DNA from: an uncultured Granulicella sp.
Lineage (GTDB): Bacteria > Acidobacteriota > Terriglobia > Terriglobales > Acidobacteriaceae
Direction of reading: 5' to 3'
DNA length: 64,000 nucleotides
Assembly: GCA_965214195.1 (NCBI GenBank)
Contig: OZ243943.1
Location: forward strand, 1,271,776 to 1,335,775
In this document: positions 10,150-61,811 of the stretch, piece by piece
Numbering within the stretch: the first letter of the stretch is position 1
How the letters are laid out: each line of letters starts with the position of its first letter
Notes under the pieces: model-generated
Told to the model about the DNA's origin: nothing
Seen by the model: only the letters and a program-made list of their open reading frames with translations
Database searches by the model: none
Position numbers and translations under genes: made by a program

Positions 10150-10213
10150 AAGTCCAGACCTAACTACCCTCGATTCAAGACTTTAGCCCCCACAGGTAGG
10201 GGGGCCTACCCCA
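10150..10213. repeat. Dispersed repeat (second copy at about 60315-60372), overlapping the rlmN stop codon
   Basis: gtccagacctaac...aagactttagcc..cacaggtagggggg here versus gtccagacttaac...aatactttagcc..tacaggggagggggg at 60315. Confidence 0.6.
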
Positions 10214-11465
10214 CCAGTTGCACTAGCTCCACCGGCGCAGCCTCAGCCTCCACCGTCCGCTTCAACTGCCCGCAAGCCGCATAGATATCGCGCCCGCGGG
10301 GCCTGCGCGTAAACGCCGGGATCCCCCCTGCGATCAGCAGCTTATGGAACCGGTCCGCTGACTCCTGCGTCGGCTGCTTGAACTCAGCTCCCGGCCCCGG
10401 ATTCCAGACGATCAGATTCACCTTCGCGTTCATCCCGCGCAGCAGCTTCAGCACTTCCGCCGCGTGCTCCGGCTGGTCGTTCACCCCGCCCAGCAGCACG
10501 TACTCAAAAGTCACATATTCACGCTTCGAGAAAGGAATCGCCTTCACCGCATCCAGCAGCGTCGCAATGTCCCACTTACGCGTGATCGGCATGATCGCCT
10601 CGCGCACCACGTCGTTGGACGCATTCAGCGACAACGCCAGCTTTGGCCGCACCGGTTCCAGCGCAAACCGCCTGATCCCCGGCTCAATCCCACTGGTGGA
10701 AACCGTCATCCTGGCTGCCGGGATCCCCATCTCCCCCGTCAAAATCCTCACCGAGTCCATAAAGGCGTCGTAGTTCAAAAACGGCTCGCCCATCCCCATG
10801 AAGACCAGGTTGATGCGATCCGGATTCCCGCGCCCGGGGCCCGTCCCCAGCTCCACCCCATGCCGGTTCAGCACCGCCGCAACCTGCCCTGCAATCTCAC
10901 CTGCGGTCAAATTCCGCCGAATCCCCAGCTTCGCCGTCAGGCAAAACTGGCAATTCACCGCGCAACCCACCTGGCTCGAAACACAAATCGTAGCCCGCTG
11001 GTATCGATTGTTGTCGTCCCGCTGCTCTTTCCCAACCAGCTTCTGAGCCCGGCCGCGAACGCTGGGTGCCCCATGCATCGCAGCTTCATCGCGATGACTG
11101 GGATCACTCAATTCTTCACCACCCGCGTCCGACCCATCGCCTCGTTCGCCACCGTCTCCACCCGGCATCCAAACCGTTTCAACCGTCTCCCCATCCGCCA
11201 GCCGGACCAGATAACGCTCGGTCCCATCGACACTCTTCGCCGTCTGCGCCAGTTCCGGCAGACCAACAGCAAAACCTTCCGCGGCCAGCCGTTCCCGCAC
11301 CGCCAGCGGCAGCGCCGTGATCTCTTCGACAGCCTGCACCCGCTGCCGGTATAGTCCATCCCCAAGCTGCACCGCGCGATACGCCGGCAGCCCCAACCCC
11401 GTCACCAGCGCGCGCAGGTCCGCAACCGACATCCCAAACAGCGCCTTGGTCGTACGCAAATCCAT
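10206..11465 (-). CDS. rlmN: 23S rRNA (adenine2503-C2)-methyltransferase RlmN, with an internal low-complexity/repeat insert
   Basis: SSQVGCAVNCQFC (CxxxCxxC), FMGMGEPF, SLNA, FEYVLLGGVND, VNLIVWNP and RGRDIYAACGQL. Confidence 0.95.
   Translation of the reverse strand: MDLRTTKALFGMSVADLRALVTGLGLPAYRAVQLGDGLYRQRVQAVEEITALPLAVRERLAAEGFAVGLPELAQTAKSVDGTERYLVRLADGETVETVWMPGGDGGERGDGSDAGGEELSDPSHRDEAAMHGAPSVRGRAQKLVGKEQRDDNNRYQRATICVSSQVGCAVNCQFCLTAKLGIRRNLTAGEIAGQVAAVLNRHGVELGTGPGRGNPDRINLVFMGMGEPFLNYDAFMDSVRILTGEMGIPAARMTVSTSGIEPGIRRFALEPVRPKLALSLNASNDVVREAIMPITRKWDIATLLDAVKAIPFSKREYVTFEYVLLGGVNDQPEHAAEVLKLLRGMNAKVNLIVWNPGPGAEFKQPTQESADRFHKLLIAGGIPAFTRRPRGRDIYAACGQLKRTVEAEAAPVELVQLVG
11064..11107. 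repeat. REP-like palindromic element inside rlmN
   Basis: gggtgccccatgcatcgcagcttcatcgcgatgactgggatcac matches intergenic 53141-53184 at 36/44 nt (manual alignment); related copies at 8976-9014 and 56397-56433. Confidence 0.8.
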
Positions 11466-11474
11466 ACTCTAAGT

Positions 11475-19089: not shown

Positions 19090-21506
19090 TGCATATCCCC
19101 TTTTTGCCCCAGATCTGACACCAACTGATGTGCCTGCAGCGCGTAGGACTTCTCAACTGCGGACATCGCGGGAACAGCCGCGTATTCCCTATCCGAGATC
19201 TCTGCATGGTGCAGCGCGTCCGCGTTGCGGCCCTGGCCTTGGAGCGCCTGGGCAAGCACAAGTTCAAGAAGAGCTACACGTGGACTGTTCGGATTTGCTT
19301 TACCAACTGTGGCCTGGATGGCTTGCGTGGCGTACGACTCTGCCTTATCGAATTGCGAGGTCTGAATGTAAGCCATCGCCAGGAAACGAAGCGGCTCGCA
19401 GAGGTTAGGACTTCCTGGAAAAGCCTTTCGCCAGTTCGGCAACGATGATTCAAGGATCGGAATGACTTCTTTGGCGTGTCCCAGTTTGATCATCGCTCGC
19501 GCCATGAAGACTTGAGTCAGCAGAGTATTGGAACTGGCATCACCAGAGCAGGTTTGGAAGTCGTAGTATGCACGCTTGTAGTTCGGCAGGCTGCCCGCAG
19601 TGTCCCCGCCCATCGTCTGAATGTTAGCCAAAATCACCCGTGCATCGGCCTGATCACACAGGGCGTAGGGCTCGCCTGAGTAAATATTGAGAGCCTCTGA
19701 TGCCAGCGCTTTGGCCTCGAGCAAATCGCCTTTGTAAGACAGGTACTCTGCCAAAAAGAAGACGGCTTTCGCTCGTTCCCGATCAGGCAGCTTTTGCCGT
19801 CTGCTATCGATCACTGCGGTGCGCAGCAGTGCTTCGTCTTCAGGGGTTCTGATTCCCCTGTTCATACGATTTTCAACAAAATACAAGACGATTTGATTGC
19901 GCACCGCCGGACTTACCCCCGAGTTCCGAGAAAGTGCAAGCGAGTCTGCGAGGAGTGAGGTTGAAGTTTCCGTTTCGCCGGCCCGGTACATAATGGTGCC
20001 ACTGTAGGCTTCAGCTTCCGCCAGCGTGGCCTTGTCTCCGCTTCGCTTTGCTTCTTCGATTACGCTTGCAAACACCTCGCCAGCATCGGCAAGATCGTCG
20101 TCGTCGAACATGGATTCCGCGAGGCTGAGTTGCGCCGCACGACGGTCGACGGGGTTATCTATCAGATTTGGAAGCAGGTGAACGCCCAGACGAAGAAACT
20201 CAGGAACGGTGGCCGCCGGCTTGCCCATGTAATTGGTGTTCGCCAGTTTGAACAGCTCTGACATAAAGCCTTGCATCTGCAACGCCCGCCGGCCTTCGCG
20301 AAAAGCCAGCTCCTGCTTCCACGCCGCATAACTGCCAATGACAAGGATGCAGCAAATCAACGCGCCGGCAGTAACGACCAGGATGCGATTTCTCCGAACA
20401 AATTTGCTGAGCCGATACGTTGTGGTCTGAGGCCGCGCCAGAATCGGCCGGCCCGCAAGGTACCGCTGGACATCCGCGATCAAGGCCTCCACGGTTGCAA
20501 AACGGTCCTTTGGTCGCGGGCTGATGCACTTGGCCACGATGGTTGCGAGGTCCCCGGTGAGCAAGCTACGCAGACGCGTTTCCGTAAGGCCACGATGTCC
20601 AGCCGAAGCCGCCGTCACACCAGCCGTCACAGATTCCGGTGGCAGCTCCATCATGGATCGCTCGATCATTGCCGCCACTGAACTGTTCTGGTTTGGTCTC
20701 CGGCCGGAGAGCAGCTCAAACAGAATCGCCCCTAAGGCGTAGACGTCGCACACCGTGGTCACCGGCTCATTGCGAAGCTGCTCTGGGCTCGCGTACGCGG
20801 GCGTGGCCATCACGGTTGTCGTGAAGAGGCTACCTGGCTGGATCAGCTTGGACGTTCCAAAGTCCAGCAGCTTCACGACCCCTCCAGCCTCTGTCACCAG
20901 AATGTTTGAGGGCTTCAAGTCAAGATGCACCACCAGACTGCGGTGTGCATACGCGACCGCTTCGCATACTCGCAAAAAGAGTTGCAACCGCTCAGGTATG
21001 CCCAGAGACCGATCGTCGCAATACGCATCCAGATGCACCCCGTCGACATACTCCATCGTCAGGTAGGGCTCGCCTTCGTCTGAGAAACCGGCATCCAGCA
21101 ACCGCGTGATGTTTGGGTGGTCCAGCGACGCAAGAATGTGTTGCTCGCGCGCAAAGCGGTCTGCAAAGAAGGGTCCCGCAGCATCGCGCGTCAGCACTTT
21201 GAGCGCGGCCTTTTGCACCAGGCCAGCCGTGGTTCGTTCCACCAGGTACACCGTGCCGATACCACCCGAGCCGAGGTGCCGCAGGATCGTATAGGGGCCT
21301 ATGCTCCTGCCACCCACAGGCCGTACGGCCGGCGCCTCAGGCTCACTCTTCTGCCTGGAAGCGCGCACGAGCGCAGCCACGCGCTGCCGCAATTCAGGGG
21401 TATCGCATGCCGCCAGCAAAATGTCGTCGAGCTCCGCATCTTGCGCCTGCTCGCCCAGGTGAAAGAGCGACTGCAGTTGCTCCCAATCCTCTGCATCCAG
21501 TGACAT
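19086..21506 (-). CDS. Membrane-anchored Hanks-type Ser/Thr protein kinase with C-terminal TPRs (HLD catalytic loop)
   Basis: LGSGGIGTVY, AALKVL, HLDLKPSNILV, KLLDFG, TPAYASPEQ and DVYALG; a TM helix after the kinase domain, then TPR-like helices. Confidence 0.92.
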   Translation of the reverse strand: MSLDAEDWEQLQSLFHLGEQAQDAELDDILLAACDTPELRQRVAALVRASRQKSEPEAPAVRPVGGRSIGPYTILRHLGSGGIGTVYLVERTTAGLVQKAALKVLTRDAAGPFFADRFAREQHILASLDHPNITRLLDAGFSDEGEPYLTMEYVDGVHLDAYCDDRSLGIPERLQLFLRVCEAVAYAHRSLVVHLDLKPSNILVTEAGGVVKLLDFGTSKLIQPGSLFTTTVMATPAYASPEQLRNEPVTTVCDVYALGAILFELLSGRRPNQNSSVAAMIERSMMELPPESVTAGVTAASAGHRGLTETRLRSLLTGDLATIVAKCISPRPKDRFATVEALIADVQRYLAGRPILARPQTTTYRLSKFVRRNRILVVTAGALICCILVIGSYAAWKQELAFREGRRALQMQGFMSELFKLANTNYMGKPAATVPEFLRLGVHLLPNLIDNPVDRRAAQLSLAESMFDDDDLADAGEVFASVIEEAKRSGDKATLAEAEAYSGTIMYRAGETETSTSLLADSLALSRNSGVSPAVRNQIVLYFVENRMNRGIRTPEDEALLRTAVIDSRRQKLPDRERAKAVFFLAEYLSYKGDLLEAKALASEALNIYSGEPYALCDQADARVILANIQTMGGDTAGSLPNYKRAYYDFQTCSGDASSNTLLTQVFMARAMIKLGHAKEVIPILESSLPNWRKAFPGSPNLCEPLRFLAMAYIQTSQFDKAESYATQAIQATVGKANPNSPRVALLELVLAQALQGQGRNADALHHAEISDREYAAVPAMSAVEKSYALQAHQLVSDLGQKGDMH

Positions 21507-21756
21507 GGCAGCTTCCTCTCACGGTACGCGCTCAATGCGTGCAATCTGTGTCATCGGACTACAGCATGCCAGACCAATTCGAGTGCGGTTTGCAAACAAC
21601 CTTGAATCTGCGGAGCTCGCGTTTTACGGTCGCCTTCAATATGCCAGGCAAAGCTCCAGGTCTGCACCCTAATGTAAACCCACCTTTCAAACAGGATGAG
21701 GTATATGACATCCGATCCTTCGTCCGAGGGATCAGAAGCAGGCTGAGGCTGAGCCA

Positions 21757-21841
21757 AGATGCATGCTCAGGGCAGATGCATGCTCAGGGCAGATGCATGC
21801 TCAGGGCAGATGCATGCTCAGGGCAGATGCATGCTCAGGGC
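21757..21841. repeat. Perfect tandem repeat, 5 x 17 bp (AGATGCATGCTCAGGGC)
   Basis: Five contiguous identical units with no spacers, in the divergent intergenic region 82 nt upstream of the radical SAM ATG. Confidence 0.97.
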
Positions 21842-21923
21842 TGCGCTTGGCGGGTCGCGCGCAGCAGGCCGTGTAGCATAAGGGCAGTCACCAAGGCAGC
21901 TGACTTATGCGCAGGGCGGGGCT

Positions 21924-22763
21924 ATGAAGTACGAGATTGTTGGCGGCAAGGTACAAACGCGGGCGCTCGAATATCACATTGCCGACCACTGCAACCTGCG
22001 CTGCGATCATTGCTGCTCTTACTCTCCAATCCTGAAAAAGTGGCTTGCTGATCCTGTGGAATTCGAGAGCGATCTGCGCGCGGTGGGCGAGGTGATCGAG
22101 CCGCGATTCCTGAAGATTGTCGGGGGCGAGCCTTTGCTGCATCCGGAGCTTGAACGTCTACTCTGCGTAGCGAAAACACTTCCCATTGGCCGCCGGCTTC
22201 AACTTACGACGAACGCCCATCTTATCGACCGGCTCACGCCGCGCGGCTGGGAAAGCATCGATATGCTGACGGTATCGCTGTACCCGGAGCCAGCCCTGCC
22301 CAAGGAGCGAATCCGCTTCATCGCGCGGGAAGCGAGGCAAAGGAATGTTGAGGTGAATTGGAAGGTGCAGGATAAGTTTACCTGTCTAGATCGTGACCAG
22401 GTGGCGAGTTCTGAGGAGGCGGAGGAGACCTTCCGCAACTGCTGGATCAGGCATCGTTGCCACAGCATCAAGCAGGGCCGCTTTTATAGCTGCACACGGC
22501 CGCAATATGTGCAGAAATTTGCGGGCGAGCCAGCCAGATATCTTGCTGATGGCATTGCGCTGGGAGGGCCGGACGCTGCGGTACTCGCAGGAAGGATCAA
22601 GCAGCACCTTGAGCGAAGCGAGCCGCTGCAAACGTGTTTCCTTTGTCAGGGTGGCGATGCGCCGCTCGATACGCATCGCCAGCTTACGCCTTTAGCGGTG
22701 CAGGCAAAGCGCGCCCACTTGGTGAGTTTGTCGCAGATGGTGCCGGCGGCGGGGGAAAGATGA
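21924..22763 (+). CDS. Radical SAM protein with Cys-rich C-terminal (twitch/SPASM-like) extension
   Basis: HCNLRCDHC (CxxxCxxC), GGEPLLHP and LTTNA; additional CWIRHRC, FYSCTR and CFLC. Confidence 0.9.
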   Translation: MKYEIVGGKVQTRALEYHIADHCNLRCDHCCSYSPILKKWLADPVEFESDLRAVGEVIEPRFLKIVGGEPLLHPELERLLCVAKTLPIGRRLQLTTNAHLIDRLTPRGWESIDMLTVSLYPEPALPKERIRFIAREARQRNVEVNWKVQDKFTCLDRDQVASSEEAEETFRNCWIRHRCHSIKQGRFYSCTRPQYVQKFAGEPARYLADGIALGGPDAAVLAGRIKQHLERSEPLQTCFLCQGGDAPLDTHRQLTPLAVQAKRAHLVSLSQMVPAAGER

Positions 22764-23722
22764 CGGAGTGGCAGCCATTGTTTCTGCACCCACGTACGGG
22801 AAGGAGCACTGCCCACCTGCGCGAGATCTATGGCTGGTGCTCGCCGAAAGAGCGGCAATTGTCCTTTGACTTTTACAACCTTTATCCGGCAGGCAACGGG
22901 ATCGGCTCGCTCACGCCGTTTGTGGGAATTCTGCAGGGCCAGGGGCCTTTAGCCGATGGCTGCCATCTGGTGAGTAGCAGTGAAAGCGGCAAGGCAAGTC
23001 TTCAGGAGCGTCTGAGCCATGCGCTTGTAGAAGCCCTGCTTGACAGCAAGGAGGTTGCGATCGCGGTCAGCGGGGGCGTGGACTGCTGGTTGCTGGCTGC
23101 GCTTTGCCAAAAGCTTGGCTACAGCGTTTGCGGCTGGTACCTGGAAAGTGGACTGCCGGGATACTGCGAGCGTGAGCAAATGCTGCGCTTGTCGGATGCG
23201 CTTGGAATCGAGTGCCGGTGCCTACGAGTGGCTGCGAGCGACTTCGTCGATTGCCTTGCCGAGTTCACTGCAGTGACGCAGATGCCTGTCTACAATCTGC
23301 ATCCTGTGTCCAAGTGGCTGCTTGCTAGGGGGCTTCGCGAGCAAGGCATCACGACCGTGGTGACGGGCGATGCGGCCGACCAGGTGATGCGTTGGGATTG
23401 GGATTGCGACCTGCTGCCAATCACGATCAGCTGTTTCAAAGGCGCCGGGATCCAAATGGTTGCGCCATTCATGGCGGACGACGTCATTGCTTTCTGCAGG
23501 CAGCCTTTCGCGGATAAAGAGCCAATTCGAAAGCTGGCCCGTGACCTTGGCGTGCCTTCGATCGCCAAGCAAGCATCCTCGTTTCCACCGTTGGCTCTGC
23601 CTGCATGGCCGCGGGCTTCGCTACCAACTTCAGGAGCCGCGCCGGACCAGCTTGCCTGTCTTGCCTATACGACAGGCGTGCTGCAGCAGTGGCTCGAAGG
23701 CGGTTTGCCATGTGCGGGATAG
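22760..23722 (+). CDS. Stand-alone asparagine-synthetase C-terminal (adenylating) domain protein
   Basis: AVSGGVD PP-loop, VVTGDAADQV, APFM and DKEPIRKLA; no N-terminal Cys/Ntn glutaminase domain. ATGA overlap with the radical SAM gene. Confidence 0.75.
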   Translation: MTEWQPLFLHPRTGRSTAHLREIYGWCSPKERQLSFDFYNLYPAGNGIGSLTPFVGILQGQGPLADGCHLVSSSESGKASLQERLSHALVEALLDSKEVAIAVSGGVDCWLLAALCQKLGYSVCGWYLESGLPGYCEREQMLRLSDALGIECRCLRVAASDFVDCLAEFTAVTQMPVYNLHPVSKWLLARGLREQGITTVVTGDAADQVMRWDWDCDLLPITISCFKGAGIQMVAPFMADDVIAFCRQPFADKEPIRKLARDLGVPSIAKQASSFPPLALPAWPRASLPTSGAAPDQLACLAYTTGVLQQWLEGGLPCAG

Positions 23723-25488
23723 GCGGCATTGTTCGCACCGCCGGGGTGCAGCCGCGGGATCGCGGGTGCGTTACGCGCTTGGAGAAGCTGTTGCTGCATC
23801 GCGGCCCGAATGGCTCCGGCAACTTCAGTGATCATTTCTGCGCGCTTACGCAGACTCGGCTCGCGCTGGTTGGCCCGGCGCTCATGCCACTGCCGGTCCG
23901 GTCTTCCGATGGCCGCTACGTGCTGGTCTACAACGGCGAGGTCTACAACTTCAAAGAACTCCGTCAGGAGCTAGCGGCCACGGCACAGTTTGCCTTGGAG
24001 ACCGACACGGAAGTCGTGCTGGCGGCGTACCTGCGGTGGGGGGAGGAATCGCCGAAGCACTTCAACGGCATGTTCGCCTTCTTTGTCTGGGACACCCAGG
24101 AACGGCGGGGGTTTGCCGCGTGCGACCCACTGGGCATCAAGCCTTTCTTCTATGCAAGCGAGCCTGGCTATTTCGTGTTCGCGTCAGAAGCAGGCGCGCT
24201 TATAGAAAGCGGCGCGTGGCGCTTCTCTCCGAACGCGGAGGCGATTGCCGAATGCCTGCTGGCACCTTACTTCAGCTCCGTGACGGCGCTGCCGTTTGCA
24301 GGCGTGGAGCGGCTCAAGCCCGGCCACATTCTGCGCTTGGACGATGGTCGCACCACGGTCCAGCCCTACTTCAGCTTTGTGCATGGGCGCAGCGAAGTAG
24401 CGGATGCGGAAGGGTTAGCCGGACAGATTGCGGAAGCTGTAGAGCAAGCCACGCTGACCAGTCTGCGGGCCGACGTGATGGTAGGCATCTTCCTGAGTGG
24501 CGGTGTGGATTCCAGCTTGCTCGCAGCGGTTGCGCAGCGGCACACTGCGACGCCTCTTACTGCGTGGACCATTTCGTACGAAGGAGAGCAAACAGTTGAC
24601 TATTCCCGGTCGCTGATTGTGCGCAGTGCCGACAAGAATTTTGCAGCCAAGGTGGCCAGGGACCACGGTTGCGTCCACTCGCTGGTGGCGGTCGACGAAG
24701 CGTGCTACGAGGCGGCATTGCTGAGAACATTGCGCGCAAACGACCTGATCTGCGCGTGGGAGCAGGAAGTTTCACAACAGTTGCTAGCCGAAGCAGCGGC
24801 AAAGCAGGTGAAGGCGGTACTGGTGGGTGATGCAGCGGACGAGACCCACTTTGGCTATTCTTTTCTGCTGGACGCTAGTCGCATCGATTCGCCACGGCAT
24901 GTCATCGGGTTCTTCGGGACCGCGCCGCTGCGACGCTCGTTTCTCGCTGATGCGCCCAGCTACTTCACCGATAAGTACCAGCGCTTTGCGGAGGAACGGG
25001 GCTATAGCTGGTCGAACGAGAGAGAGCAACGTTTGGCGATGTCATGCCTGATTTACCACTTGTGGCTGACGCGCCTGATGCATAACGGTGACGTTCATCT
25101 TATGTCGCACTCGCTGGAGGGAAGAGTGCCGTTTGGTGATATTGGCTTGCTGCGCCTGGCGCAACAGGTGCCGCAGGAACTGGGATACCGCAACGGTATT
25201 GAAAAGTGGCATCTGCGGCACGCGGCCGAGCGCTTTATCGAGCCGGCAATCGCATGGCGGCCAAAGTCCGCGCTGACGAAAAATCTACGCGCCAACGCAA
25301 TCATCCATCGCCACTTCGTCCGCACCTGGCGAACATCAGGCGCGCATCTTGAGCCTTACGTGGACAGCGATGCCGTTGATCGGATTGCTAACGCGGAAGC
25401 CCCACAGACCGAACGGGAGATCGGCATCTGCTTCCGCATGCTAGCGGTAATGAGCTGGTTTGACCGATTCAGCAAGGCCATGCCATGA
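23710..25488 (+). CDS. AsnB-family glutamine-hydrolysing amidotransferase
   Basis: MCGIGG (Cys nucleophile), HRGPN, YNGEVYNF, TDTEV, DPLGIKPFFY, FLSGGVDSS, VLVGDAADE and SLEGRVPF. Confidence 0.9.
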   Translation: MCGIGGIVRTAGVQPRDRGCVTRLEKLLLHRGPNGSGNFSDHFCALTQTRLALVGPALMPLPVRSSDGRYVLVYNGEVYNFKELRQELAATAQFALETDTEVVLAAYLRWGEESPKHFNGMFAFFVWDTQERRGFAACDPLGIKPFFYASEPGYFVFASEAGALIESGAWRFSPNAEAIAECLLAPYFSSVTALPFAGVERLKPGHILRLDDGRTTVQPYFSFVHGRSEVADAEGLAGQIAEAVEQATLTSLRADVMVGIFLSGGVDSSLLAAVAQRHTATPLTAWTISYEGEQTVDYSRSLIVRSADKNFAAKVARDHGCVHSLVAVDEACYEAALLRTLRANDLICAWEQEVSQQLLAEAAAKQVKAVLVGDAADETHFGYSFLLDASRIDSPRHVIGFFGTAPLRRSFLADAPSYFTDKYQRFAEERGYSWSNEREQRLAMSCLIYHLWLTRLMHNGDVHLMSHSLEGRVPFGDIGLLRLAQQVPQELGYRNGIEKWHLRHAAERFIEPAIAWRPKSALTKNLRANAIIHRHFVRTWRTSGAHLEPYVDSDAVDRIANAEAPQTEREIGICFRMLAVMSWFDRFSKAMP

Positions 25489-26666
25489 AGGCCGCGTTCG
25501 CAATTGTGCCGGAAATGGGCCACATCAATCCGTACATCGGGCCGGCGCAGGCGCTGGAGTATGCCGGCCATGAGGTCGTCATCGCGGCGCCCGGCGACAT
25601 TGCCGCTCAGATTGGAAGAGCCGGGTTAGCTTTCCGTCACGATCTGATCCGGCGTGGCGCCAGTGTGCGGGTCACGCGCGGCGCAGAACTGGTCGAATTG
25701 ATCGAGGATAATGAACGGCTGCACCAGTGGGTTGAGCATTTGCTGCTGAGCGATCTGCAGGAGGAAGTGGAATCCGTCCGGAAGTGGCTCCGCCGCGAGC
25801 GTGCCGATGTGGTCGTGGTGGACCCGCTGTACTATGCCGCGGCGATTGCGGCGGAGGTCGAGGGTCTCCCCTGGGCGTCGCTGTCCAACTCGTTAAATCC
25901 TGTGCTTCCACCGGAACTTGGTAGCGCCTTGTTGCGCTCTGTGAAACGTCTGAGTGCGGCCCGTGCCAAGCTTTTCCGCAGCTTTGCGGTAGAAGCCTCT
26001 TTCGCCGGTTGCGACGTGTTGTCTCCTTACCTGACCGTCGCCTTCACGACTGAAGCCCTGGTGGGCAAGCCGCCGGCTGGCGTAACGCTGGTGGGCCCAT
26101 CGCGACCTCTGCACAACCGCGGCGATGAGACGGCGCTACGTCAGCTGCCAAACGACCGGCCAATCATCTATGTTTCATTCGGCAGTCAAATCTACTTCTG
26201 GCCTGAACTTTTCGAGACTCTTTATGCTGCGGGGACATCGCTGCACGCTCATCTGGTTCTAAGCATCGGCGATCTTGTAGACGATCCCCGATGGTCTGCG
26301 CCCCGGAAGCACTGTGACGTGTACCGCTATGCTCCGCAGCCGCAGATACTGCCCCATGCTGCCATTTTTGTGACGCATGGCGGAGCCAATTCTGTGAATG
26401 AGGCAATCACAGCGGGGGTGCCGATGCTCCTTTCGCCCATGTGCAACGACCAGTTTCATCAGGCTTTCTTTGTTGAAAGGGCCGGGATCGGATACGTGGA
26501 GAACCTGCTGCGGATGCCGGTGGAGCGAGTCGTCGAAAAGCTGCAGGCCCTGCTGCACGACTCTGATGTGCGCTCAAGGATGGCGGCGGTCTCGAAGTCC
26601 TACCAGACGAATGGGGCCTCAGTGGCGGCGGCCATGATCGCCGGGCTTGCGGAGCGGCGCGTATGA
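25485..26666 (+). CDS. Glycosyltransferase family 1 (MGT/UDP-glycosyltransferase type)
   Basis: GHINP, IYVSFGS and PQPQIL..AAIFVTHGGANSVNEAITAGVPMLLSPMCNDQ (PSPG-like box). Confidence 0.9.
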   Translation: MKAAFAIVPEMGHINPYIGPAQALEYAGHEVVIAAPGDIAAQIGRAGLAFRHDLIRRGASVRVTRGAELVELIEDNERLHQWVEHLLLSDLQEEVESVRKWLRRERADVVVVDPLYYAAAIAAEVEGLPWASLSNSLNPVLPPELGSALLRSVKRLSAARAKLFRSFAVEASFAGCDVLSPYLTVAFTTEALVGKPPAGVTLVGPSRPLHNRGDETALRQLPNDRPIIYVSFGSQIYFWPELFETLYAAGTSLHAHLVLSIGDLVDDPRWSAPRKHCDVYRYAPQPQILPHAAIFVTHGGANSVNEAITAGVPMLLSPMCNDQFHQAFFVERAGIGYVENLLRMPVERVVEKLQALLHDSDVRSRMAAVSKSYQTNGASVAAAMIAGLAERRV

Positions 26667-53380: not shown

Positions 53381-55591
53381 ATGCGCGTCCGCCACCTAGC
53401 CCCCCTGCTCCTCCTCGCAAGCCTGCAAGCCCAAAATCACAAACCCCACCCCGCCACCCAAATCCAGCCAACATCGTCCCTCCCCATCACCCGCGTAGCC
53501 CTCTACAAAAACGGCGTCGGCTTCTTCGAGCACACCGGCCACGTAGCCAACGACCAGGCCGTCACCATCGACTTCACCAGCGCGCAGCTCAACGACGTCC
53601 TCCAATCCCTCACCGCCATCGACCTCAACGGCGGCCGCATCTCCGGCGCCGGCTACAACTCCACCACGCCGCTTGAGCAGCAACTCAAAACCCTCCCCCT
53701 CGGCCTCTCCGACGACCCCTCCGACATCGACTTCTACAACGCCATCCGCGGCGCACGCGTAGCCGTCTCGGGTGCCGGCGTCAGCATCACCGGCCGCCTG
53801 CTCTCCATCGACCTCCGCCCCGAAGTAAAAAAATCCGACGCAGACGACTCGGACGCCCTCACCAAATCAGCCCGCCGCTTCCTCACCGTAGTCTCCGATG
53901 GCGGCCAGGTCCGCACCATCGAGCTCACCCAGGGCGTCTCCGTCACCCTCGTCGACACTGCCCTCCACACCGACGTCACCCGCTACCTCGAGCTCATCTC
54001 AAACGCCCGCAACCAGGGCCTCCGCCACCTCACCCTCACCGACCGCGGCACCGGTCCCCGCGAACTCCGCGTCAGCTACATCTCAGAAGTCCCCGTCTGG
54101 AAGTCCACCTACCGCATCCTCTTCACAGACAGCAAAGCAGCCAACGCCACCCTGCAGGGCTGGTCCGTCGTCGACAACACCACCGGCTCCGACTGGATCA
54201 ACGTCCACATGGACCTCATCGCCGGCGCCCCGCAAAGCTTCATCCAGCCCCTCTCCACCCCCTATTACACCCGCCGCGTAGAAGTCCCGCTCCCCCAGGA
54301 AGCCCAGATGGATCCCCAAACCTTTGAGTCCGGCGTTGTGATTGACTCAGAGGAGGTCAGCAAACTGCCGATCGAAAGCCGCAATGTACAGCTTGCCCAG
54401 ATTCAGCCAAGCGTCGCCGCCAAAGCTCGTTCCAACGCGGTTCATGGCTTGGCAGGTGGCGTCGCAGGCGGTGTAATCGGCGGCCGCGTCAAAGCATACG
54501 CCCCAGGCGAAGCGCTGGGAGGCGCAATCAACATCAACGGCATGGTACCCCCACCCCCTGCCCCCATCGACTACGCCGACGCCGCCACCACCTCCCTCAC
54601 CCCCCAAACCACCACCGCCGCCTTCGACGATTACTTCCAGTACTCCCTCACCGACCCCATCACCATCCGCAAAAATGAGTCCGCCCTCGTCCCCATCCTC
54701 CAGACCAGGCTCCCCATCGAGCGCGTCACGTTGTGGTCCATCCAGCAGCCGCAAGCCCTGCGAGCCCTCTGGCTCACCAACAACTCCAACCTAACCCTCG
54801 ACCGAGGCTCCTTCTCCATCGTAGAAAACGGCAACTTCGGCGGCGAAGGCCTCCTCGACCCCATCCACCCGGGCGAGCGCCGCCTCCTCTCCTACGCCGC
54901 CGACCAGGCCGTCCGCGTAACCCCCGGCCGCGACTCCAACTCCCACACTGTCTTCCACATCGCCATCAACAAAGGCGTCCTCACCCAGCGCCTCACCTAC
55001 GTTGAGGAGCGCAGCTACACCATCCGCAACGCCGCACCCGACACCCGCACCGTCCTCGTCGAGACCCCCGTCCTCCCCGGCTACGCGCTCGATTCAACCC
55101 CCAAACCCGACGAAACCACCCCCACCGTCTACCGCTTCAAGGTGGAAGCCGCCCCAAACATCAACGTCAACTTGCACGTAGGCCAGCGCAAGGTAGGCTA
55201 TGAATCCTTCCGCCTCGTCGACCGCGACGAAAACCAGCTAGTCCTCATCCTGCGCAACGCCAAGGCCAGCCCCGCCGCCATGGCCCAGCTCCAACCCGTC
55301 TTCGACGCCCACCACGCCGTCCTGGCTTTGGACAAGCAAATCGCCGACCGCCAGGCCGAAACCAACACCATCACCCAGGACCAGAACCGCCTGCGCGAAA
55401 ACATGAAGGCCCTCAAAGGCTCGCCAGAAGAGCGCACCCTCCTGACCCGCTACACCGCTGAACTAAACACCCAGGAAGACCGCCTGGCAGCCCTCACCAA
55501 AGAAATCGCAGACCTCCGCCTGAAACGCATAGCCGCCGACCAGGACTTCACCACCAAACTGAACGCCATCCAGATCGACGAAAACACCTAG
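53381..55591 (+). CDS. DUF4139/DUF4140-type exported protein
   Basis: Signal peptide, LPITRVALYKNGVGFFEH, YISEVPVWKSTYRI, VDNTTGSDW, F.Y.L..PITI and C-terminal coiled coil. Confidence 0.85.
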   Translation: MRVRHLAPLLLLASLQAQNHKPHPATQIQPTSSLPITRVALYKNGVGFFEHTGHVANDQAVTIDFTSAQLNDVLQSLTAIDLNGGRISGAGYNSTTPLEQQLKTLPLGLSDDPSDIDFYNAIRGARVAVSGAGVSITGRLLSIDLRPEVKKSDADDSDALTKSARRFLTVVSDGGQVRTIELTQGVSVTLVDTALHTDVTRYLELISNARNQGLRHLTLTDRGTGPRELRVSYISEVPVWKSTYRILFTDSKAANATLQGWSVVDNTTGSDWINVHMDLIAGAPQSFIQPLSTPYYTRRVEVPLPQEAQMDPQTFESGVVIDSEEVSKLPIESRNVQLAQIQPSVAAKARSNAVHGLAGGVAGGVIGGRVKAYAPGEALGGAININGMVPPPPAPIDYADAATTSLTPQTTTAAFDDYFQYSLTDPITIRKNESALVPILQTRLPIERVTLWSIQQPQALRALWLTNNSNLTLDRGSFSIVENGNFGGEGLLDPIHPGERRLLSYAADQAVRVTPGRDSNSHTVFHIAINKGVLTQRLTYVEERSYTIRNAAPDTRTVLVETPVLPGYALDSTPKPDETTPTVYRFKVEAAPNINVNLHVGQRKVGYESFRLVDRDENQLVLILRNAKASPAAMAQLQPVFDAHHAVLALDKQIADRQAETNTITQDQNRLRENMKALKGSPEERTLLTRYTAELNTQEDRLAALTKEIADLRLKRIAADQDFTTKLNAIQIDENT

Positions 55592-55803
55592 CCCCTATCC
55601 CACTTACTCGGAACAAATGTTGTCATCATGCGCGAAGTCCACCGGCACTATCGGCGGACGCAGTTGAAGGACCTACATCTCCCCCGTTCAGCCACCAATC
55701 TCATCAGCCATGCCCCCGGGTGCCCCATCCTTTCAGCCTCACCGATAGGGTGGGTTATCGATTCCAGCAGGAATCGACCGCCCTCCTCCCCCAGCCCCTA
55801 ACC

Positions 55804-55839
55804 CCGGGTGCTTCAGGTCTCGCTTCTGAGACCTGGGTT
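55804..55839. repeat. REP-like hairpin, intergenic relative of the DUF1015 insert
   Basis: ccgggtgcttcaggtctcgcttctgagacctgggtt, with stem CAGGTCTC/GAGACCTG. Confidence 0.75.
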
Positions 55840-55878
55840 CCAACCCGCCACCCCGTGCTACCCTTATCCACAAATCCC

Positions 55879-56301
55879 ATGCTCCCACTCCTCGCACTCC
55901 TTCTCGCGCAAGAGTCCGGCCCCGCAGAAATCATCGTCGACGAGCGCTGCCGCGTCTACACCCAGGACCGCCCCGGCCCCAACGCCGCCTACTCCAAACC
56001 CGGCTTTCACGATGGCTCCGGCCTCTGCCACATCAAGAGCGACAACCACTCCAGCCACTGGGAAGAGTCCGTCTCAAACGGCATCGTCAACCGCACCAAG
56101 GTCCAGATCCACGAGCGCAACTACCTCCTCTTCAACCCATCCGACGCCCGCGTAGCCTTCGTCCTCGAGGTCTCCCTCCCCGATGGCTGGGTCATCGACT
56201 CCATACCCCAGCCCACCGAAGTCGTTGACCACATGGCCACCTTCCGCGTCTACGCCAAACCCGGCGAAACCCTCAAGCTCCACATAGGCGAACGCAAGTA
56301 G
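55879..56301 (+). CDS. Exported hypothetical protein resembling the C-terminal beta domain of the upstream DUF4139 protein
   Basis: Short signal MLPLLALLLAQ; ERNY...GWVIDSIPQP.E....FRV.A.P......LHIGERK aligns with the upstream gene. Confidence 0.65.
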   Translation: MLPLLALLLAQESGPAEIIVDERCRVYTQDRPGPNAAYSKPGFHDGSGLCHIKSDNHSSHWEESVSNGIVNRTKVQIHERNYLLFNPSDARVAFVLEVSLPDGWVIDSIPQPTEVVDHMATFRVYAKPGETLKLHIGERK

Positions 56302-60404: not shown

Positions 60405-61811
60405 ATGGCCCGCATTTATCCCTTCCGCGCCCTTCGTTACGACACCCAGAAAGTCCAAATGGAGGATGTTGTCACCCAGCCCTACGACAAAATCACGCCG
60501 GAAATGCAGCAGGCCTATTACGATCGCTCCAAGTACAACCTGATCCGCGTCATCCTCGGCAAAAAAGAGCCCGGCGACACGGACGCTTTTCAGCCGTCCG
60601 ATGAGCCCGCACATAACGTCTACACCCGCGCTGCCGAGTCGCTTACCAGCTGGCGAAAAAAGTCCATCCTGCGCGAGGAAGCCGAGCCCGCCCTCTACGG
60701 CTACTCGCAAACCTACCAGGTGCCCGGAACCGACCAGATCCAGGAGCGCAAGGGCTTCATCGCGCTCGGCCAGCTCTACGACTACGCAGAAAAGGTCGTC
60801 TACCGCCACGAGCAGACGTTTCCCAAGCACAAATCCGACCGGCTCGCGCTCTTCAAAGCCACCCGCGCCTACTGCGAGCAGATCTACATGCTCTACTCCG
60901 ACCCCGCCTTCACGGCTGAAAAACTGATCTTCACCGGCGCCCCAGCCGACCTCGAAATCACCGACGAATATAACGTAGTCCACCGCGTATGGCGACTGAC
61001 GGACGCGCACCTGATCAACCTCATTGTCACCGCCATGGCCGACAAAAAGCTCATCATCGCCGACGGCCACCACCGCTACGAAACCAGCGTCACCTACATG
61101 AAGGAGCGCCAGGAACAGTTGAATCCGGGTGCCCCACCTCTCGATTCTGAGAGGTGGGATGGAAGCGGCACAGACCCCAGTGAATCCCCCTCCAACCGCG
61201 CCGACGAGCCCCACGCGCTCCTCCCCAAGCCAGCCTTCCCGGAAGCCGCCATGATGATGACCTTCGTCAACATGGACGCCCCCGGAATCACCATCCTGCC
61301 CACTCACCGCGTAGTTTTCGGCCTGAAAGACTTTTCGACAGGCACCTTCCTCACCGCCGCTGAACCCTACTTCGAGATCACCCGCCAGGACTCCGCAAGC
61401 GTCCCCGCAGAAATTCAGGGAGTAGCCCTCGTCGCCGCAACCCGCGACGGCAACCACCTGCTCACCGCAAAGCCGGAAGCAATTAGCGCGCGCCTGAAAG
61501 AGCTGCACCCGGAAATCACCGCCCGCCAGGCGTCTCTCGATGTGGTCCAGCTCCACCGCATCCTGCTGGAAGACGTCCTGCAGCTATCGCACGAATCTAT
61601 CGCCAACACCGAGAACATCCGCTACATCCGCAGCGCTGAAGAAGCCGTCGCACAGGTCGCCGAAGGCAAGGCCGATGTCGCCTTCCTGATCAAGCCCGTT
61701 ACTCTCCAGCAGCTAAAAGACATCTCCCTCTCAGGCGACGTCATGCCCCAGAAGTCCACCGACTTCTACCCCAAGCTCCTCAGCGGCCTGGCCATCTACG
61801 CCCTCGACTAG
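60405..61811 (+). CDS. DUF1015 domain protein
   Basis: PFRALRY, VVTQPYDKI, YRHEQT, IIADGHHRYET and MPQKSTDFYPKLLSGL; AAGGAG RBS. Confidence 0.9.
   Translation: MARIYPFRALRYDTQKVQMEDVVTQPYDKITPEMQQAYYDRSKYNLIRVILGKKEPGDTDAFQPSDEPAHNVYTRAAESLTSWRKKSILREEAEPALYGYSQTYQVPGTDQIQERKGFIALGQLYDYAEKVVYRHEQTFPKHKSDRLALFKATRAYCEQIYMLYSDPAFTAEKLIFTGAPADLEITDEYNVVHRVWRLTDAHLINLIVTAMADKKLIIADGHHRYETSVTYMKERQEQLNPGAPPLDSERWDGSGTDPSESPSNRADEPHALLPKPAFPEAAMMMTFVNMDAPGITILPTHRVVFGLKDFSTGTFLTAAEPYFEITRQDSASVPAEIQGVALVAATRDGNHLLTAKPEAISARLKELHPEITARQASLDVVQLHRILLEDVLQLSHESIANTENIRYIRSAEEAVAQVAEGKADVAFLIKPVTLQQLKDISLSGDVMPQKSTDFYPKLLSGLAIYALD
61125..61160. repeat. REP-like hairpin inside the DUF1015 coding sequence
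   Basis: ccgggtgccccacctctcgattctgagaggtgggat; perfect 10-bp stem CCCACCTCTC/GAGAGGTGGG. Confidence 0.78.

What the first reader, a model, noticed from the sequence alone, without database searches (positions are those of the whole stretch)
61125..61160. Second in-frame REP hairpin, inside DUF1015, with compensatory base changes versus its intergenic relative
Seen: ccgggtgcCCCACCTCTC-gattct-GAGAGGTGGGat (encodes PGAPPLDSERWD) aligns end to end with intergenic 55804-55839 (ccgggtgcttCAGGTCTC-gcttct-GAGACCTGggtt). The CC/GG pairs of one stem are GG/CC in the other, so the hairpin is preserved while the sequence changes. It shares the GGGTGCCCC left end with the rlmN insert. Inference: a structured repeat family inserts into tolerant protein loops, and this has happened twice within this window.
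Basis: partly seen in the sequence, partly recalled or inferred. Interest (0 to 1): 0.65.

Follow-up and report, generated by a model that had tools for sequence, protein, structure and literature searches.

The report
Mobile REP hairpin translated inside DUF1015
A 32-45 base copy of a small mobile DNA hairpin (a REP element, with its own transposase gene elsewhere in the genome) sits in frame in a floppy loop of a conserved acidobacterial protein; about 25 such in-frame copies exist in this genome, but this kind of event has already been described in other bacteria.

Summary
Window 61125-61160 is a perfect copy of the "B" subtype of a repeat with 93 copies in this 4.06 Mb genome. The repeat has a 5' tag GGGTGC and a 10-bp stem. 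The intergenic copy at 55804-55839 is the "A" subtype. The two differ by a GG/CC to CC/GG swap that keeps the stem paired.

The family is a genuine REP/RAYT system. A REP-associated tyrosine transposase gene lies inside a cluster of A/B copies at 1.18 Mb. Its orthologues in four related species are flanked by the same repeat. The family occurs in 22 of 25 genomes of the genus and in none of 16 from the sister family.

The DUF1015 copy encodes PGAPPLDSERWDGSGT in a predicted disordered loop. That loop is 38-103 residues long across about 105 orthologues, and the closest relatives lack the element.

Genome-wide, 27 copies lie deep inside conserved genes, including GyrA, UvrC, PurL, AsnS, RecG, RecQ and MutS2. 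Nineteen share one orientation and frame (GAPGLASETWD / GAPPLDSERWD).

In-frame intragenic REPs, enriched in DNA-repair genes, were described by Di Nocera et al. 2013 and for Rickettsia RPEs. This is therefore a new member of a known kind. The cause of the one-frame bias and of the distinct 3' tail of genic copies is unresolved.

The parts
61125..61160 (+). The 36-mer of the finding: a REP copy of subtype B (CCCACCTCTC / GAGAGGTGGG stem) in frame in DUF1015.
   Evidence: Sequence read. The 32-nt core at 61127-61158 has 0 mismatches to the family pattern and scores 54.2 bits with covariance model R1. The same 32-nt core occurs 7 times in the genome.
61159..61171 (+). 3' extension ATGGAAGCGGCAC (encodes ..DGSGT). 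This is the tail variant typical of genic copies; intergenic copies have TT(T) here.
   Evidence: Genic consensus is ATGgAgCaGCa against TTt for intergenic copies. TT follows the core in 39/53 intergenic and 4/27 genic copies, p 8e-7. In the RNA fold, UGGA of this tail pairs with the 5' flank UCCG and leaves GGGUG in an internal loop; -26.7 kcal/mol, z -2.8.
60405..61811 (+). Host gene: DUF1015 family protein, 468 aa. The REP-encoded residues are about 241-257 (PGAPPLDSERWDGSGT).
   Evidence: Pfam PF06245, E 7e-76, with the match split at residue 239. The AlphaFold2 model has mean pLDDT 82.5. Residues 240-278 have no regular structure and pLDDT 43-55, lying between helix 222-239 and strand 283-289.
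55806..55837 (+). Intergenic REP copy of subtype A (CAGGTCTC / GAGACCTG stem; the tag is degenerate, GGGTGCTT).
   Evidence: 48.7 bits. It lies between the stop of ORF 53381-55591 and the likely ATG at 55879 of the next gene.
55716..55782 (+). Longer two-hairpin repeat of subtype C with the same GGGTGCCCC tag, directly upstream of the A copy.
   Evidence: There are 41 genome copies of this type. The same C-then-A arrangement recurs elsewhere, including inside genes.
11064..11107 (+). Subtype D repeat with the same tag. It lies antisense to, and in frame within, rlmN (peptide ..SDPSHRDEAAMHGAPSV..).
   Evidence: The host ORF 10209-11468(-) is RlmN: TIGR00048, 318.9 bits against a cut-off of 290.

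Best explanation
The hairpin in DUF1015 is a copy of a genus-specific REP (repetitive palindromic) family. Each unit has a conserved 5' tag GGGTGC, a 10-bp G+C-rich stem, a 6-nt loop and a short outer helix. The family has a cognate REP-associated tyrosine transposase (RAYT, an HUH/Y1 enzyme) encoded at genome position 1.18 Mb and flanked by the repeats. By analogy with studied RAYT and IS200/IS605 enzymes, the transposase acts on the folded single strand and spreads copies around the chromosome; this step is inferred, not shown. Copies persist where they do no harm. Most persist a few bases after the stop codon of a co-oriented gene. About a quarter persist inside genes, in frame, in disordered loops or linkers. 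There, one reading frame gives a small, flexible, acidic peptide: GAP-G/P-L-A/D-SE-T/R-WD. The DUF1015 copy is such a passenger. It is read through as PGAPPLDSERWDGSGT in a loop that is disordered, acidic and length-variable in all relatives. The GG/CC versus CC/GG difference from the intergenic neighbour marks the two main subfamilies (A and B). These often sit as inverted doublets and both keep the stem paired. The element is probably young or sequence-constrained: its core is identical to the subfamily consensus and its codons are not adapted to the genome.
For: Copy number and structure:
- 92 copies by pattern search and 93 by covariance model.
- 95.1% of stem cells are paired against 86.0 in shuffles and at most 60% when the partner columns are slid.
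- Further compensatory stem variants (CA/TG, TGTCCC/GGGACA, CTGG/CCAG) and T-G wobble variants (TA/TG) occur in sister species.

Transposase:
- A Y1_Tnp hit lies inside the A/B cluster at 1181841-1183023.
- It matches NCBIfam NF047646, REP-associated tyrosine transposase, 83 bits against a cut-off of 80, E 2e-23, with HVH and YMHQNP motifs.
- Orthologues in G023, G014, G007 and G006 are flanked by the same repeat.

Distribution: 22 of 25 genus genomes and 0 of 16 sister-family genomes carry the family.

Insertion into DUF1015:
- The closest orthologues (77-79% identical) lack the element. The loop is 38-103 aa long. G005 carries an A-like copy at nearly the same site.
- The loop is disordered in the AlphaFold2 model.

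Generality:
- 27 copies have at least 100 codons on each side. Hosts confirmed by NCBIfam include UvrC, RecQ, GyrA, MutS2, PurL, AsnS, RecG, XseA and NifS.
- AsnS and PurL orthologues show clean empty sites in most species of the genus.

Youth or constraint:
- 12 of 27 genic copies match the consensus perfectly, the same share as intergenic copies.
- Element GC3 is 0.45 against 0.76 for genes.
- A peptide-level search finds only one extra decayed copy.

Strand bias: the tagged strand lies on one replication strand in 49 of 68 singles (p 4e-4), with dnaA at 2.87 Mb. This is as expected for single-strand Y1 transposition (PMC6006769).
Against: - No activity of the RAYT on these repeats has been shown. 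Mobility is inferred from copy number, empty sites and analogy.
- The DUF1015 site is not a clean insertion relative to living relatives. The gene is only 15-21 nt longer than in the nearest relatives, and the flanking loop sequence has also changed. Exact boundaries and any target duplication cannot be read.
- The tag is GGGTGC, not the GTAG or CGTC of the described REP superfamilies.
- Passive tolerance does not obviously explain why 24 of 27 genic copies are sense-oriented, since one antisense frame (NPGLRSETWGTR) looks equally loop-friendly.
- Passive tolerance also does not explain why genic copies share a 12-nt 3' tail.
- Translation of the segment is inferred from intact essential ORFs, not observed.
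Confidence: 0.85

Rival explanations
1. The hairpin inside coding sequence is kept because it works as an RNA or DNA signal. Possible roles are mRNA stability or processing, translational pausing, or a gyrase or other protein binding site. On this view genic copies are selected rather than neutral passengers. This rival is compatible with a REP origin.
For: - Genic copies are as close to consensus as intergenic ones, and there is almost no tail of decayed copies.
- Codons are not ameliorated.
- 24 of 27 genic copies are sense-oriented.
- T-G wobble variants in the stem in sister species suggest pairing at the RNA level.
- Hosts are enriched for DNA repair and replication proteins, as in Di Nocera 2013 (PMC3733652).
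Against: - Orthologues of every host examined work without the element in most species.
- Occupied sites differ between close species.
- The same facts fit rapid turnover of young insertions.
- Nothing here tests a function.
Confidence: 0.15
2. The segment did not arrive by transposition into DUF1015. Instead, recombination or gene conversion from another copy overwrote an older repeat-derived loop. That would explain why orthologous sites hold different subtypes in different species.
For: - DUF1015: subtype B in G000 and an A-like copy in G005 at nearly the same site.
- PurL site 2: subtype B in G000, subtype A in G023, empty in G011.
- The AsnS loop holds A, C and other repeats in different species.
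- The net length change in DUF1015 is only 15-21 nt.
Against: - Flanks of the AsnS insert differ between G000 and G007/G014, which suggests independent insertions.
- The nearest relatives of G000 have empty sites.
- Repeated hits on the few loops that tolerate inserts explain the pattern without conversion.
Confidence: 0.1
3. The peptide GAPxLxSExWD is a protein-level motif, for example a processing, sorting or modification signal. It would be selected independently in many proteins, and the DNA similarity would be secondary.
For: Nineteen unrelated proteins carry it in the same frame, often followed by D-G-A-A.
Against: - Copies are identical at synonymous positions, with codons atypical for the genome.
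- 53 copies are intergenic.
- The same DNA flanks a transposase gene.
- Other frames and antisense copies also occur in genes.
- Orthologues lack the motif.
Confidence: 0.03

Closest known systems
Intragenic REPs and RAYT/REPtron systems, surveyed by Di Nocera, De Gregorio and Rocco 2013 (BMC Genomics 14:522, PMC3733652); RAYT and REPIN work of Nunvar, Bertels and Rainey, and Ton-Hoang
   Same: - A short G+C-rich hairpin with a conserved 5' tag, in tens to hundreds of copies.
- Subfamilies with complementary stem changes.
- Inverted doublets.
- Singles placed less than about 30 bp after the stop of a co-oriented ORF.
- A transposase gene flanked by its own repeats.
- A share of copies entirely inside ORFs, in frame, sometimes twice per gene or as whole dimers, with many hosts in DNA replication and repair (UvrC, UvrD/RecB-like and helicases here too).
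   Different: - The tag is GGGTGC, not GTAG or CGTC.
- The host is an acidobacterium. That paper reports only TIR-flanked transposases for this phylum.
- The genic share is high: 27 of 92.
- Nineteen of the 27 genic copies share one frame.
- Genic copies carry a distinct 3' tail without the T run.
Rickettsia palindromic elements (RPE; Ogata et al. 2000, 2002, as cited in PMC3733652)
   Same: Palindromic repeats inserted in frame into many conserved, evidently functional genes and read through as extra surface peptide.
   Different: - I compared no RPE sequence; this is a functional analogy only.
- From my own recollection, not checked here: RPE-1 is much longer (about 100-150 bp).
- Di Nocera 2013 found no dedicated transposase for the CGTC repeats to which RPE-4 and RPE-6 correspond.
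- Rickettsia hosts are reduced intracellular genomes, whereas this is a free-living soil bacterium.
IS200/IS605-family single-strand transposition (IS608, ISDra2; reviewed in PMC6006769)
   Same: An HUH/Y1 enzyme, subterminal hairpins recognised as single strands, and a strand bias relative to replication (49:19 here).
   Different: REPs carry no transposase of their own. The RAYT is single-copy and chromosomal. No cleavage site or target sequence has been defined here.

Membership tests
REP / RAYT (REPtron) system | Short imperfect palindrome (20-40 bp) present in many dispersed copies. | tested here: met
   92-93 copies of a 32-nt unit with a 10-bp stem. Three further tag-sharing types bring exact GGGTGCCCC sites to 179.
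REP / RAYT (REPtron) system | Stem maintained by compensatory change. | tested here: met
   95.1% of cells paired against 86.0 +/- 0.9 in shuffles; 45 cells changed on both sides against 16.6; 3 of 10 pairs show changes on both sides. More variants occur in sister species. These are few events, because subfamilies are counted many times.
REP / RAYT (REPtron) system | Cognate RAYT gene (HUH and Tyr motifs) flanked by the repeats. | tested here: met
   The ORF at genome 1182383-1182901(-) matches NF047646 at 83 bits against a cut-off of 80, and has HVH and YMHQNP motifs. B(-) and A(+) copies lie on both sides. The same arrangement is seen in G023, G014, G007 and G006.
REP / RAYT (REPtron) system | Inverted doublets (REPIN/BIME) and mostly extragenic location downstream of ORFs. 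| tested here: met
   At least 8 A/B inverted pairs less than 120 bp apart. 53 intergenic copies; 40 of the 56 intergenic or gene-edge copies have a co-oriented gene on the 5' side, often 6-30 nt from its stop.
REP / RAYT (REPtron) system | RAYT binds and cleaves the REP single strand. | not testable with these tools
   Requires purified protein and oligonucleotides.
GTAG- or CGTC-tagged REP superfamilies (Di Nocera 2013) | Terminal GTAG (or a listed degenerate form) or CGTC next to the stem. | tested here: not met
   The tag is GGGTGC in more than 85% of copies. It contains GGTG/GTGC, not GTAG, GTGG or CGTC. I therefore file this as a REP/RAYT system but not in either named superfamily.
MITE | Terminal inverted repeats of an IS plus target-site duplication. 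| tested here: inconclusive
   No duplication is visible at the AsnS insert boundaries, but flanks have diverged. No related IS was sought.
Any Rfam RNA family | Match to a curated covariance model. | tested here: not met
   Only tRNAs reach the gathering score in the window. Nothing matches at either REP site even at E up to 10.

The most novel reading that the evidence does not exclude
The genic copies may not be a random surviving sample of insertions. They could be a sub-lineage adapted to life inside coding sequence. They keep the sense orientation (24 of 27) and one frame (19 of 27). They replace the T-run tail with ATGGAGCGGCAC (WDGAA) while preserving an outer helix. They stay at consensus sequence, and they recur at the same loops in different species with different stem subtypes. 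This would imply either insertion coupled to transcription or translation, or an active cycle of insertion and precise excision that makes protein loops a regular habitat for a RAYT-driven replicator.
Probability: 0.2. Interest if true: 0.7.

Novelty: new member of a known kind. Interest (0 to 1): 0.4.

Why it matters
On its own this is one more in-frame REP insertion, a phenomenon documented since 2000 for Rickettsia and since 2013 for several phyla.

The genome is nonetheless a compact natural data set for two open questions about REP/RAYT systems. The first is how these elements choose or survive at their sites. The second is why DNA-repair and replication proteins are hit so often. Relevant features here:
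- 93 copies, of which 27 lie inside conserved and partly essential genes.
- Two tail variants that separate genic from intergenic copies.
- A clear replication-strand bias.
- Sister species with different stem variants and empty sites.

For annotation, the result warns that 11-25-residue GAP...WD segments in acidobacterial proteins are repeat-derived. They should not be read as conserved motifs.

Tried and rejected
- Rfam at gathering score and at E up to 10: no family at either REP site.
- PDB sequence search with DUF1015: no solved relative. The loop was judged from an AlphaFold2 model instead.
No population or RNA evidence was therefore available.
- Intrinsic-terminator idea for intergenic copies: only 8 of 53 have at least 5 T in the 8 nt after the stem, and the window's intergenic copy is not called by the terminator scan. 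I keep this only as a possible role for a minority of copies.
- Replication bias as the cause of the sense orientation in genes: rejected. Genes are split 48:52 between strands, yet 23 of 25 single genic copies are sense.
- First codon-usage gene finder: it seemed to mix sense and antisense ORFs and was replaced by an iterated dicodon model. Host identities were then checked with NCBIfam.
- Some long predicted genes that contain repeats (20482-25890; perhaps 2230534-2232195) are probably read-through of repeat arrays. I gave them little weight, but the copies in these two ORFs (24742 and 2231021) still count among the 27 deep genic copies.
- Peptide-level search for decayed copies: only one extra hit, against 0 for reversed-peptide controls.

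Full report
**Observation**

- Window 61125-61160 lies in ORF 60405-61811(+). This ORF is a DUF1015 protein (Pfam PF06245, E 7e-76, match split at residue 239) and reads ...YMKERQEQLNPGAPPLDSERWDGSGTDPSES....
- The family consensus with up to 3 mismatches hits exactly these two places in the window, against 0.00 expected in 100 shuffles.
- As RNA the DUF1015 copy folds at -26.7 kcal/mol (z -2.8). The 5' flank UCCG pairs with UGGA of the 3' tail, which leaves GGGUG in an internal loop.

**A genome-wide family**

The window is C1:1271776-1335775 of a single 4.06 Mb contig with 61% G+C.
- GGGTGCCCC occurs 179 times.
- These sites fall into tag-sharing types:
  - short hairpins A (CCCAGGTCTC..GAGACCTGGG) and B (CCCACCTCTC..GAGAGGTGGG);
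  - a long two-hairpin type C;
  - a type D.
- A pattern search finds 92 A/B-like units. A covariance model built from them finds 93 at E <= 0.01.
- The DUF1015 copy is a perfect B unit. The intergenic neighbour is an A unit with a slightly degenerate tag.

**Covariation**

- On 59 distinct copies, 95.1% of stem cells pair, against 86.0 +/- 0.9 in shuffles and at most 60% when partners are slid.
- 45 cells are changed on both sides, against 16.6 +/- 2.9 in shuffles.
- Three of the ten pairs show changes on both sides: GC/CG/UA at pair 5, GC/CG at pair 6, and AU/GC at pair 4.
- The two variable positions were left free in the search pattern, so their pairing is not an ascertainment effect.
- These are few evolutionary events counted many times.
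- Sister species add more variants: CA/TG, TGTCCC/GGGACA and CTGG/CCAG, plus common T-G wobble variants such as TA/TG.

**The transposase**

- Pfam Y1_Tnp hits four places in the genome. One, at 1182632-1182862(-), lies inside a cluster of alternating B(-) and A(+) copies at 1181841-1183023.
- The ORF begins MPEGLERR... and carries PEHVHLL and WYMHQNPVKRGL motifs.
- It matches NCBIfam NF047646, REP-associated tyrosine transposase, at 83 bits against a cut-off of 80, E 2e-23.
- In G023, G014, G007 and G006 they are flanked within about 100 bp by copies of this same repeat, carrying that species' own stem variants.
- The repeat is present in 22 of 25 genomes of the genus and in none of 16 from the sister family.
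- Record titles of DUF1015 relatives place the organism in Acidobacteriaceae, near Granulicella, Edaphobacter and Tunturiibacter.

**The DUF1015 site**

- Across about 105 orthologues, the segment from DGHHRY to MMxFVNM is 38-103 residues long.
- Only the window's gene and that of G005 carry the tag. G005 reads GAPDQASETWD, an A-like copy with a decayed left arm, at almost the same place.
- Two other lineages carry unrelated repeat-derived inserts.
- The closest relatives (77-79% identical) read ...AAELGIQPSTAEDDESPS... or ...AAELGLTLSPEATEEDEESPS... where the window has ...QEQLNPGAPPLDSERWDGSGTDPSESPS...
- The gene is only 15-21 nt longer than in those relatives, and the neighbouring loop sequence has also changed. 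The boundaries therefore cannot be read exactly.
- An AlphaFold2 model built on 42 sequences (mean pLDDT 82.5, pTM 0.82) shows no regular structure and pLDDT 43-55 for residues 240-278. This stretch lies between helix 222-239 and strand 283-289.

**Generality**

- I predicted genes with an iterated dicodon model: 3116 genes covering 88% of the genome.
- Under that model, 53 units are intergenic, 3 touch gene ends and 36 lie in predicted genes. Twenty-seven have at least 100 codons on each side.
- NCBIfam confirms these hosts: UvrC, a RarA-like ATPase, RecQ, an AddA/RecB-like helicase, GyrA, an aldehyde dehydrogenase, MurQ, MutS2, PurL (two copies), AsnS, NifS, RecG and XseA. The profile match often breaks at the insert.
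- MutS2 carries a whole inverted doublet in frame.
- AsnS has a clean empty site (..KLETIQAP|FPRISYD..) in most species of the genus and a 69-nt insert in this genome.
  - An independent-looking A-type insert with different flanks sits at the same point in G007 and G014.
  - Other repeats occupy the same point in G017, G006 and G002.
- PurL site 2 holds subtype B here, subtype A in G023, and nothing in G011.
- The rlmN case in this window is a type D copy, antisense to the gene. This agrees with the earlier scan note e1-5226107.

**Biases**

- Frame and orientation. Of the 27 deep genic copies:
  - 19 are in one orientation and frame (GAPGLASETWD or GAPPLDSERWD);
  - 5 are in the other open sense frame (RVPQVSxLRPG);
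  - 3 are antisense;
  - the third sense frame has TGA in the loop.
  - p = 2e-8 for the single frame against one in five open frames, and p = 5e-5 for orientation.
- Types C and D also favour the frame that reads the tag as G-A-P.
- 3' tail. Genic copies share the tail ATGGAGCGGCAC, whereas intergenic copies have TT(T). TT follows the core in 39/53 intergenic against 4/27 genic copies, p 8e-7.
- Position of intergenic copies. Forty of the 56 intergenic or gene-edge copies have a co-oriented gene on their 5' side, often 6-30 nt from its stop.
- Replication strand. dnaA lies at 2.87 Mb and the skew maximum at 0.79 Mb. The tagged strand of single copies lies on one replication strand in 49 of 68 cases (p 4e-4), while genes are split 48:52.
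- Sequence state.
  - Genic copies are as close to consensus as intergenic ones: 12/27 against 22/53 perfect.
  - Their GC3 is 0.45 against 0.76 for genes.
  - A peptide-level search finds only one extra decayed copy.

**Interpretation**

- Shown here:
  - a structured repeat family;
  - its association with a RAYT;
  - presence/absence at orthologous loops;
  - intact reading frames through essential genes.
- Inferred:
  - mobilisation by the RAYT on single-stranded DNA;
  - read-through translation of the inserted segment;
  - purifying selection as the filter that leaves in-frame copies in disordered loops.
- Not explained: the strong sense and single-frame bias and the genic tail variant.
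  - The favoured frame is the only one without basic residues and with net negative charge. That fits acidic disordered linkers such as the DUF1015 loop, so peptide tolerance may be enough.
  - A mechanistic coupling, or a coding-adapted sub-lineage, is not excluded.

**Comparison with the literature**

- Di Nocera et al. 2013 (PMC3733652) describe all of the following:
  - REPs entirely inside ORFs in several species, as singles, dimers and double hits;
  - enrichment of such hosts in replication and repair genes;
  - REPs less than 20 bp after upstream ORFs;
  - stem subfamilies with complementary changes;
  - RAYT genes flanked by REPs.
- For Acidobacteria that paper reports only TIR-flanked transposases.
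- Rickettsia RPEs are the classic in-frame palindromes.
- Quentin et al. 2018 (PMC6006769) review the lagging-strand link of Y1 transposases.
- I therefore rate this as a new member of a known kind, with moderate interest. Most of that interest lies in the size and cleanliness of the genic subset.

Noticed in passing
window 55716-55839: A long type C repeat (two hairpins, same GGGTGCCCC tag) is followed 88 nt later by the type A copy. The same C-then-A or A-then-C arrangement recurs at several genome sites, both intergenic and inside genes (for example the ArnT-like protein at genome 3930982-3933441, ..PGAPSFPASPERMGY..NPGAPGLTSETS..).
   Followed up: partly
genome G000 C1:2965820-2968420 (MutS2): A complete inverted REP doublet (B antisense plus A sense, 59 nt apart) is read through in frame as ..AEPTSQTREVGHPDSVSDDNGLGAPGLASETRDGGGNN.. 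inside MutS2 (TIGR01069, 685 bits).
   Followed up: partly
genome G000 C1:2230534-2232195: A GT2 (HpnB-like) glycosyltransferase ORF contains one A-type copy and four tandem type C copies. The type C copies read in frame as GAPSFEPHPKGGVSFP(Q/A)GND... between the catalytic domain and the membrane part. I did not establish whether this is one gene or a read-through of two.
   Followed up: no
genome G000 C1:20482-25890; also loci L116 (DUF1015) and L078 (AsnS): A different abundant repeat translates as ..(N)IVILSE(G)P(R)SPTA(R)TAVEGPAF.. It forms arrays here and also sits in frame in the same DUF1015 and AsnS loops in other Acidobacteriaceae. This second repeat family uses the same loops.
   Followed up: no
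genome-wide (hosts listed): Eight of about 22 host genes act in DNA repair or replication: UvrC, RarA-like, RecQ, AddA/RecB-like, GyrA, MutS2, RecG and XseA. This echoes the unexplained enrichment reported by Di Nocera et al. 2013. It was not tested against a length- or linker-matched background.
   Followed up: no
genome G000 C1, whole chromosome: The tagged strand of single REP copies lies on one replication strand in 49 of 68 cases. Eighteen of 25 single genic copies are sense copies whose tagged strand lies on that strand, which places these host genes on the lagging strand, whereas genes overall are split 48:52. GC skew is flat between 2.3 and 3.2 Mb although dnaA lies at 2.868 Mb.
   Followed up: partly
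genome G000 C1:3547061-3547384, 1068159-1068461, 2280048-2280203: Three further Y1_Tnp (PF01797) hits were not characterised. They may be IS200-type transposases or the RAYTs of repeat types C and D.
   Followed up: no
window 55720-56301: The longest ORF here starts at GTG 55720 and would read through both intergenic repeats. The signal-peptide-like MLPLLALLLAQ at ATG 55879 is the more likely start, so automatic annotation may wrongly place these two repeats inside a gene.
   Followed up: partly
genome G000 C1:749131-751929 (RecQ) and 655085, 751058: A composite variant of the A unit carries about 25 extra bases between the tag and the stem (GGGTGCCCCAGAGCCTGCCCTGAGC..GAAGGGTCTCG..). In RecQ it is read in frame as GAPEPALSSSKGLASETW.
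   Followed up: no
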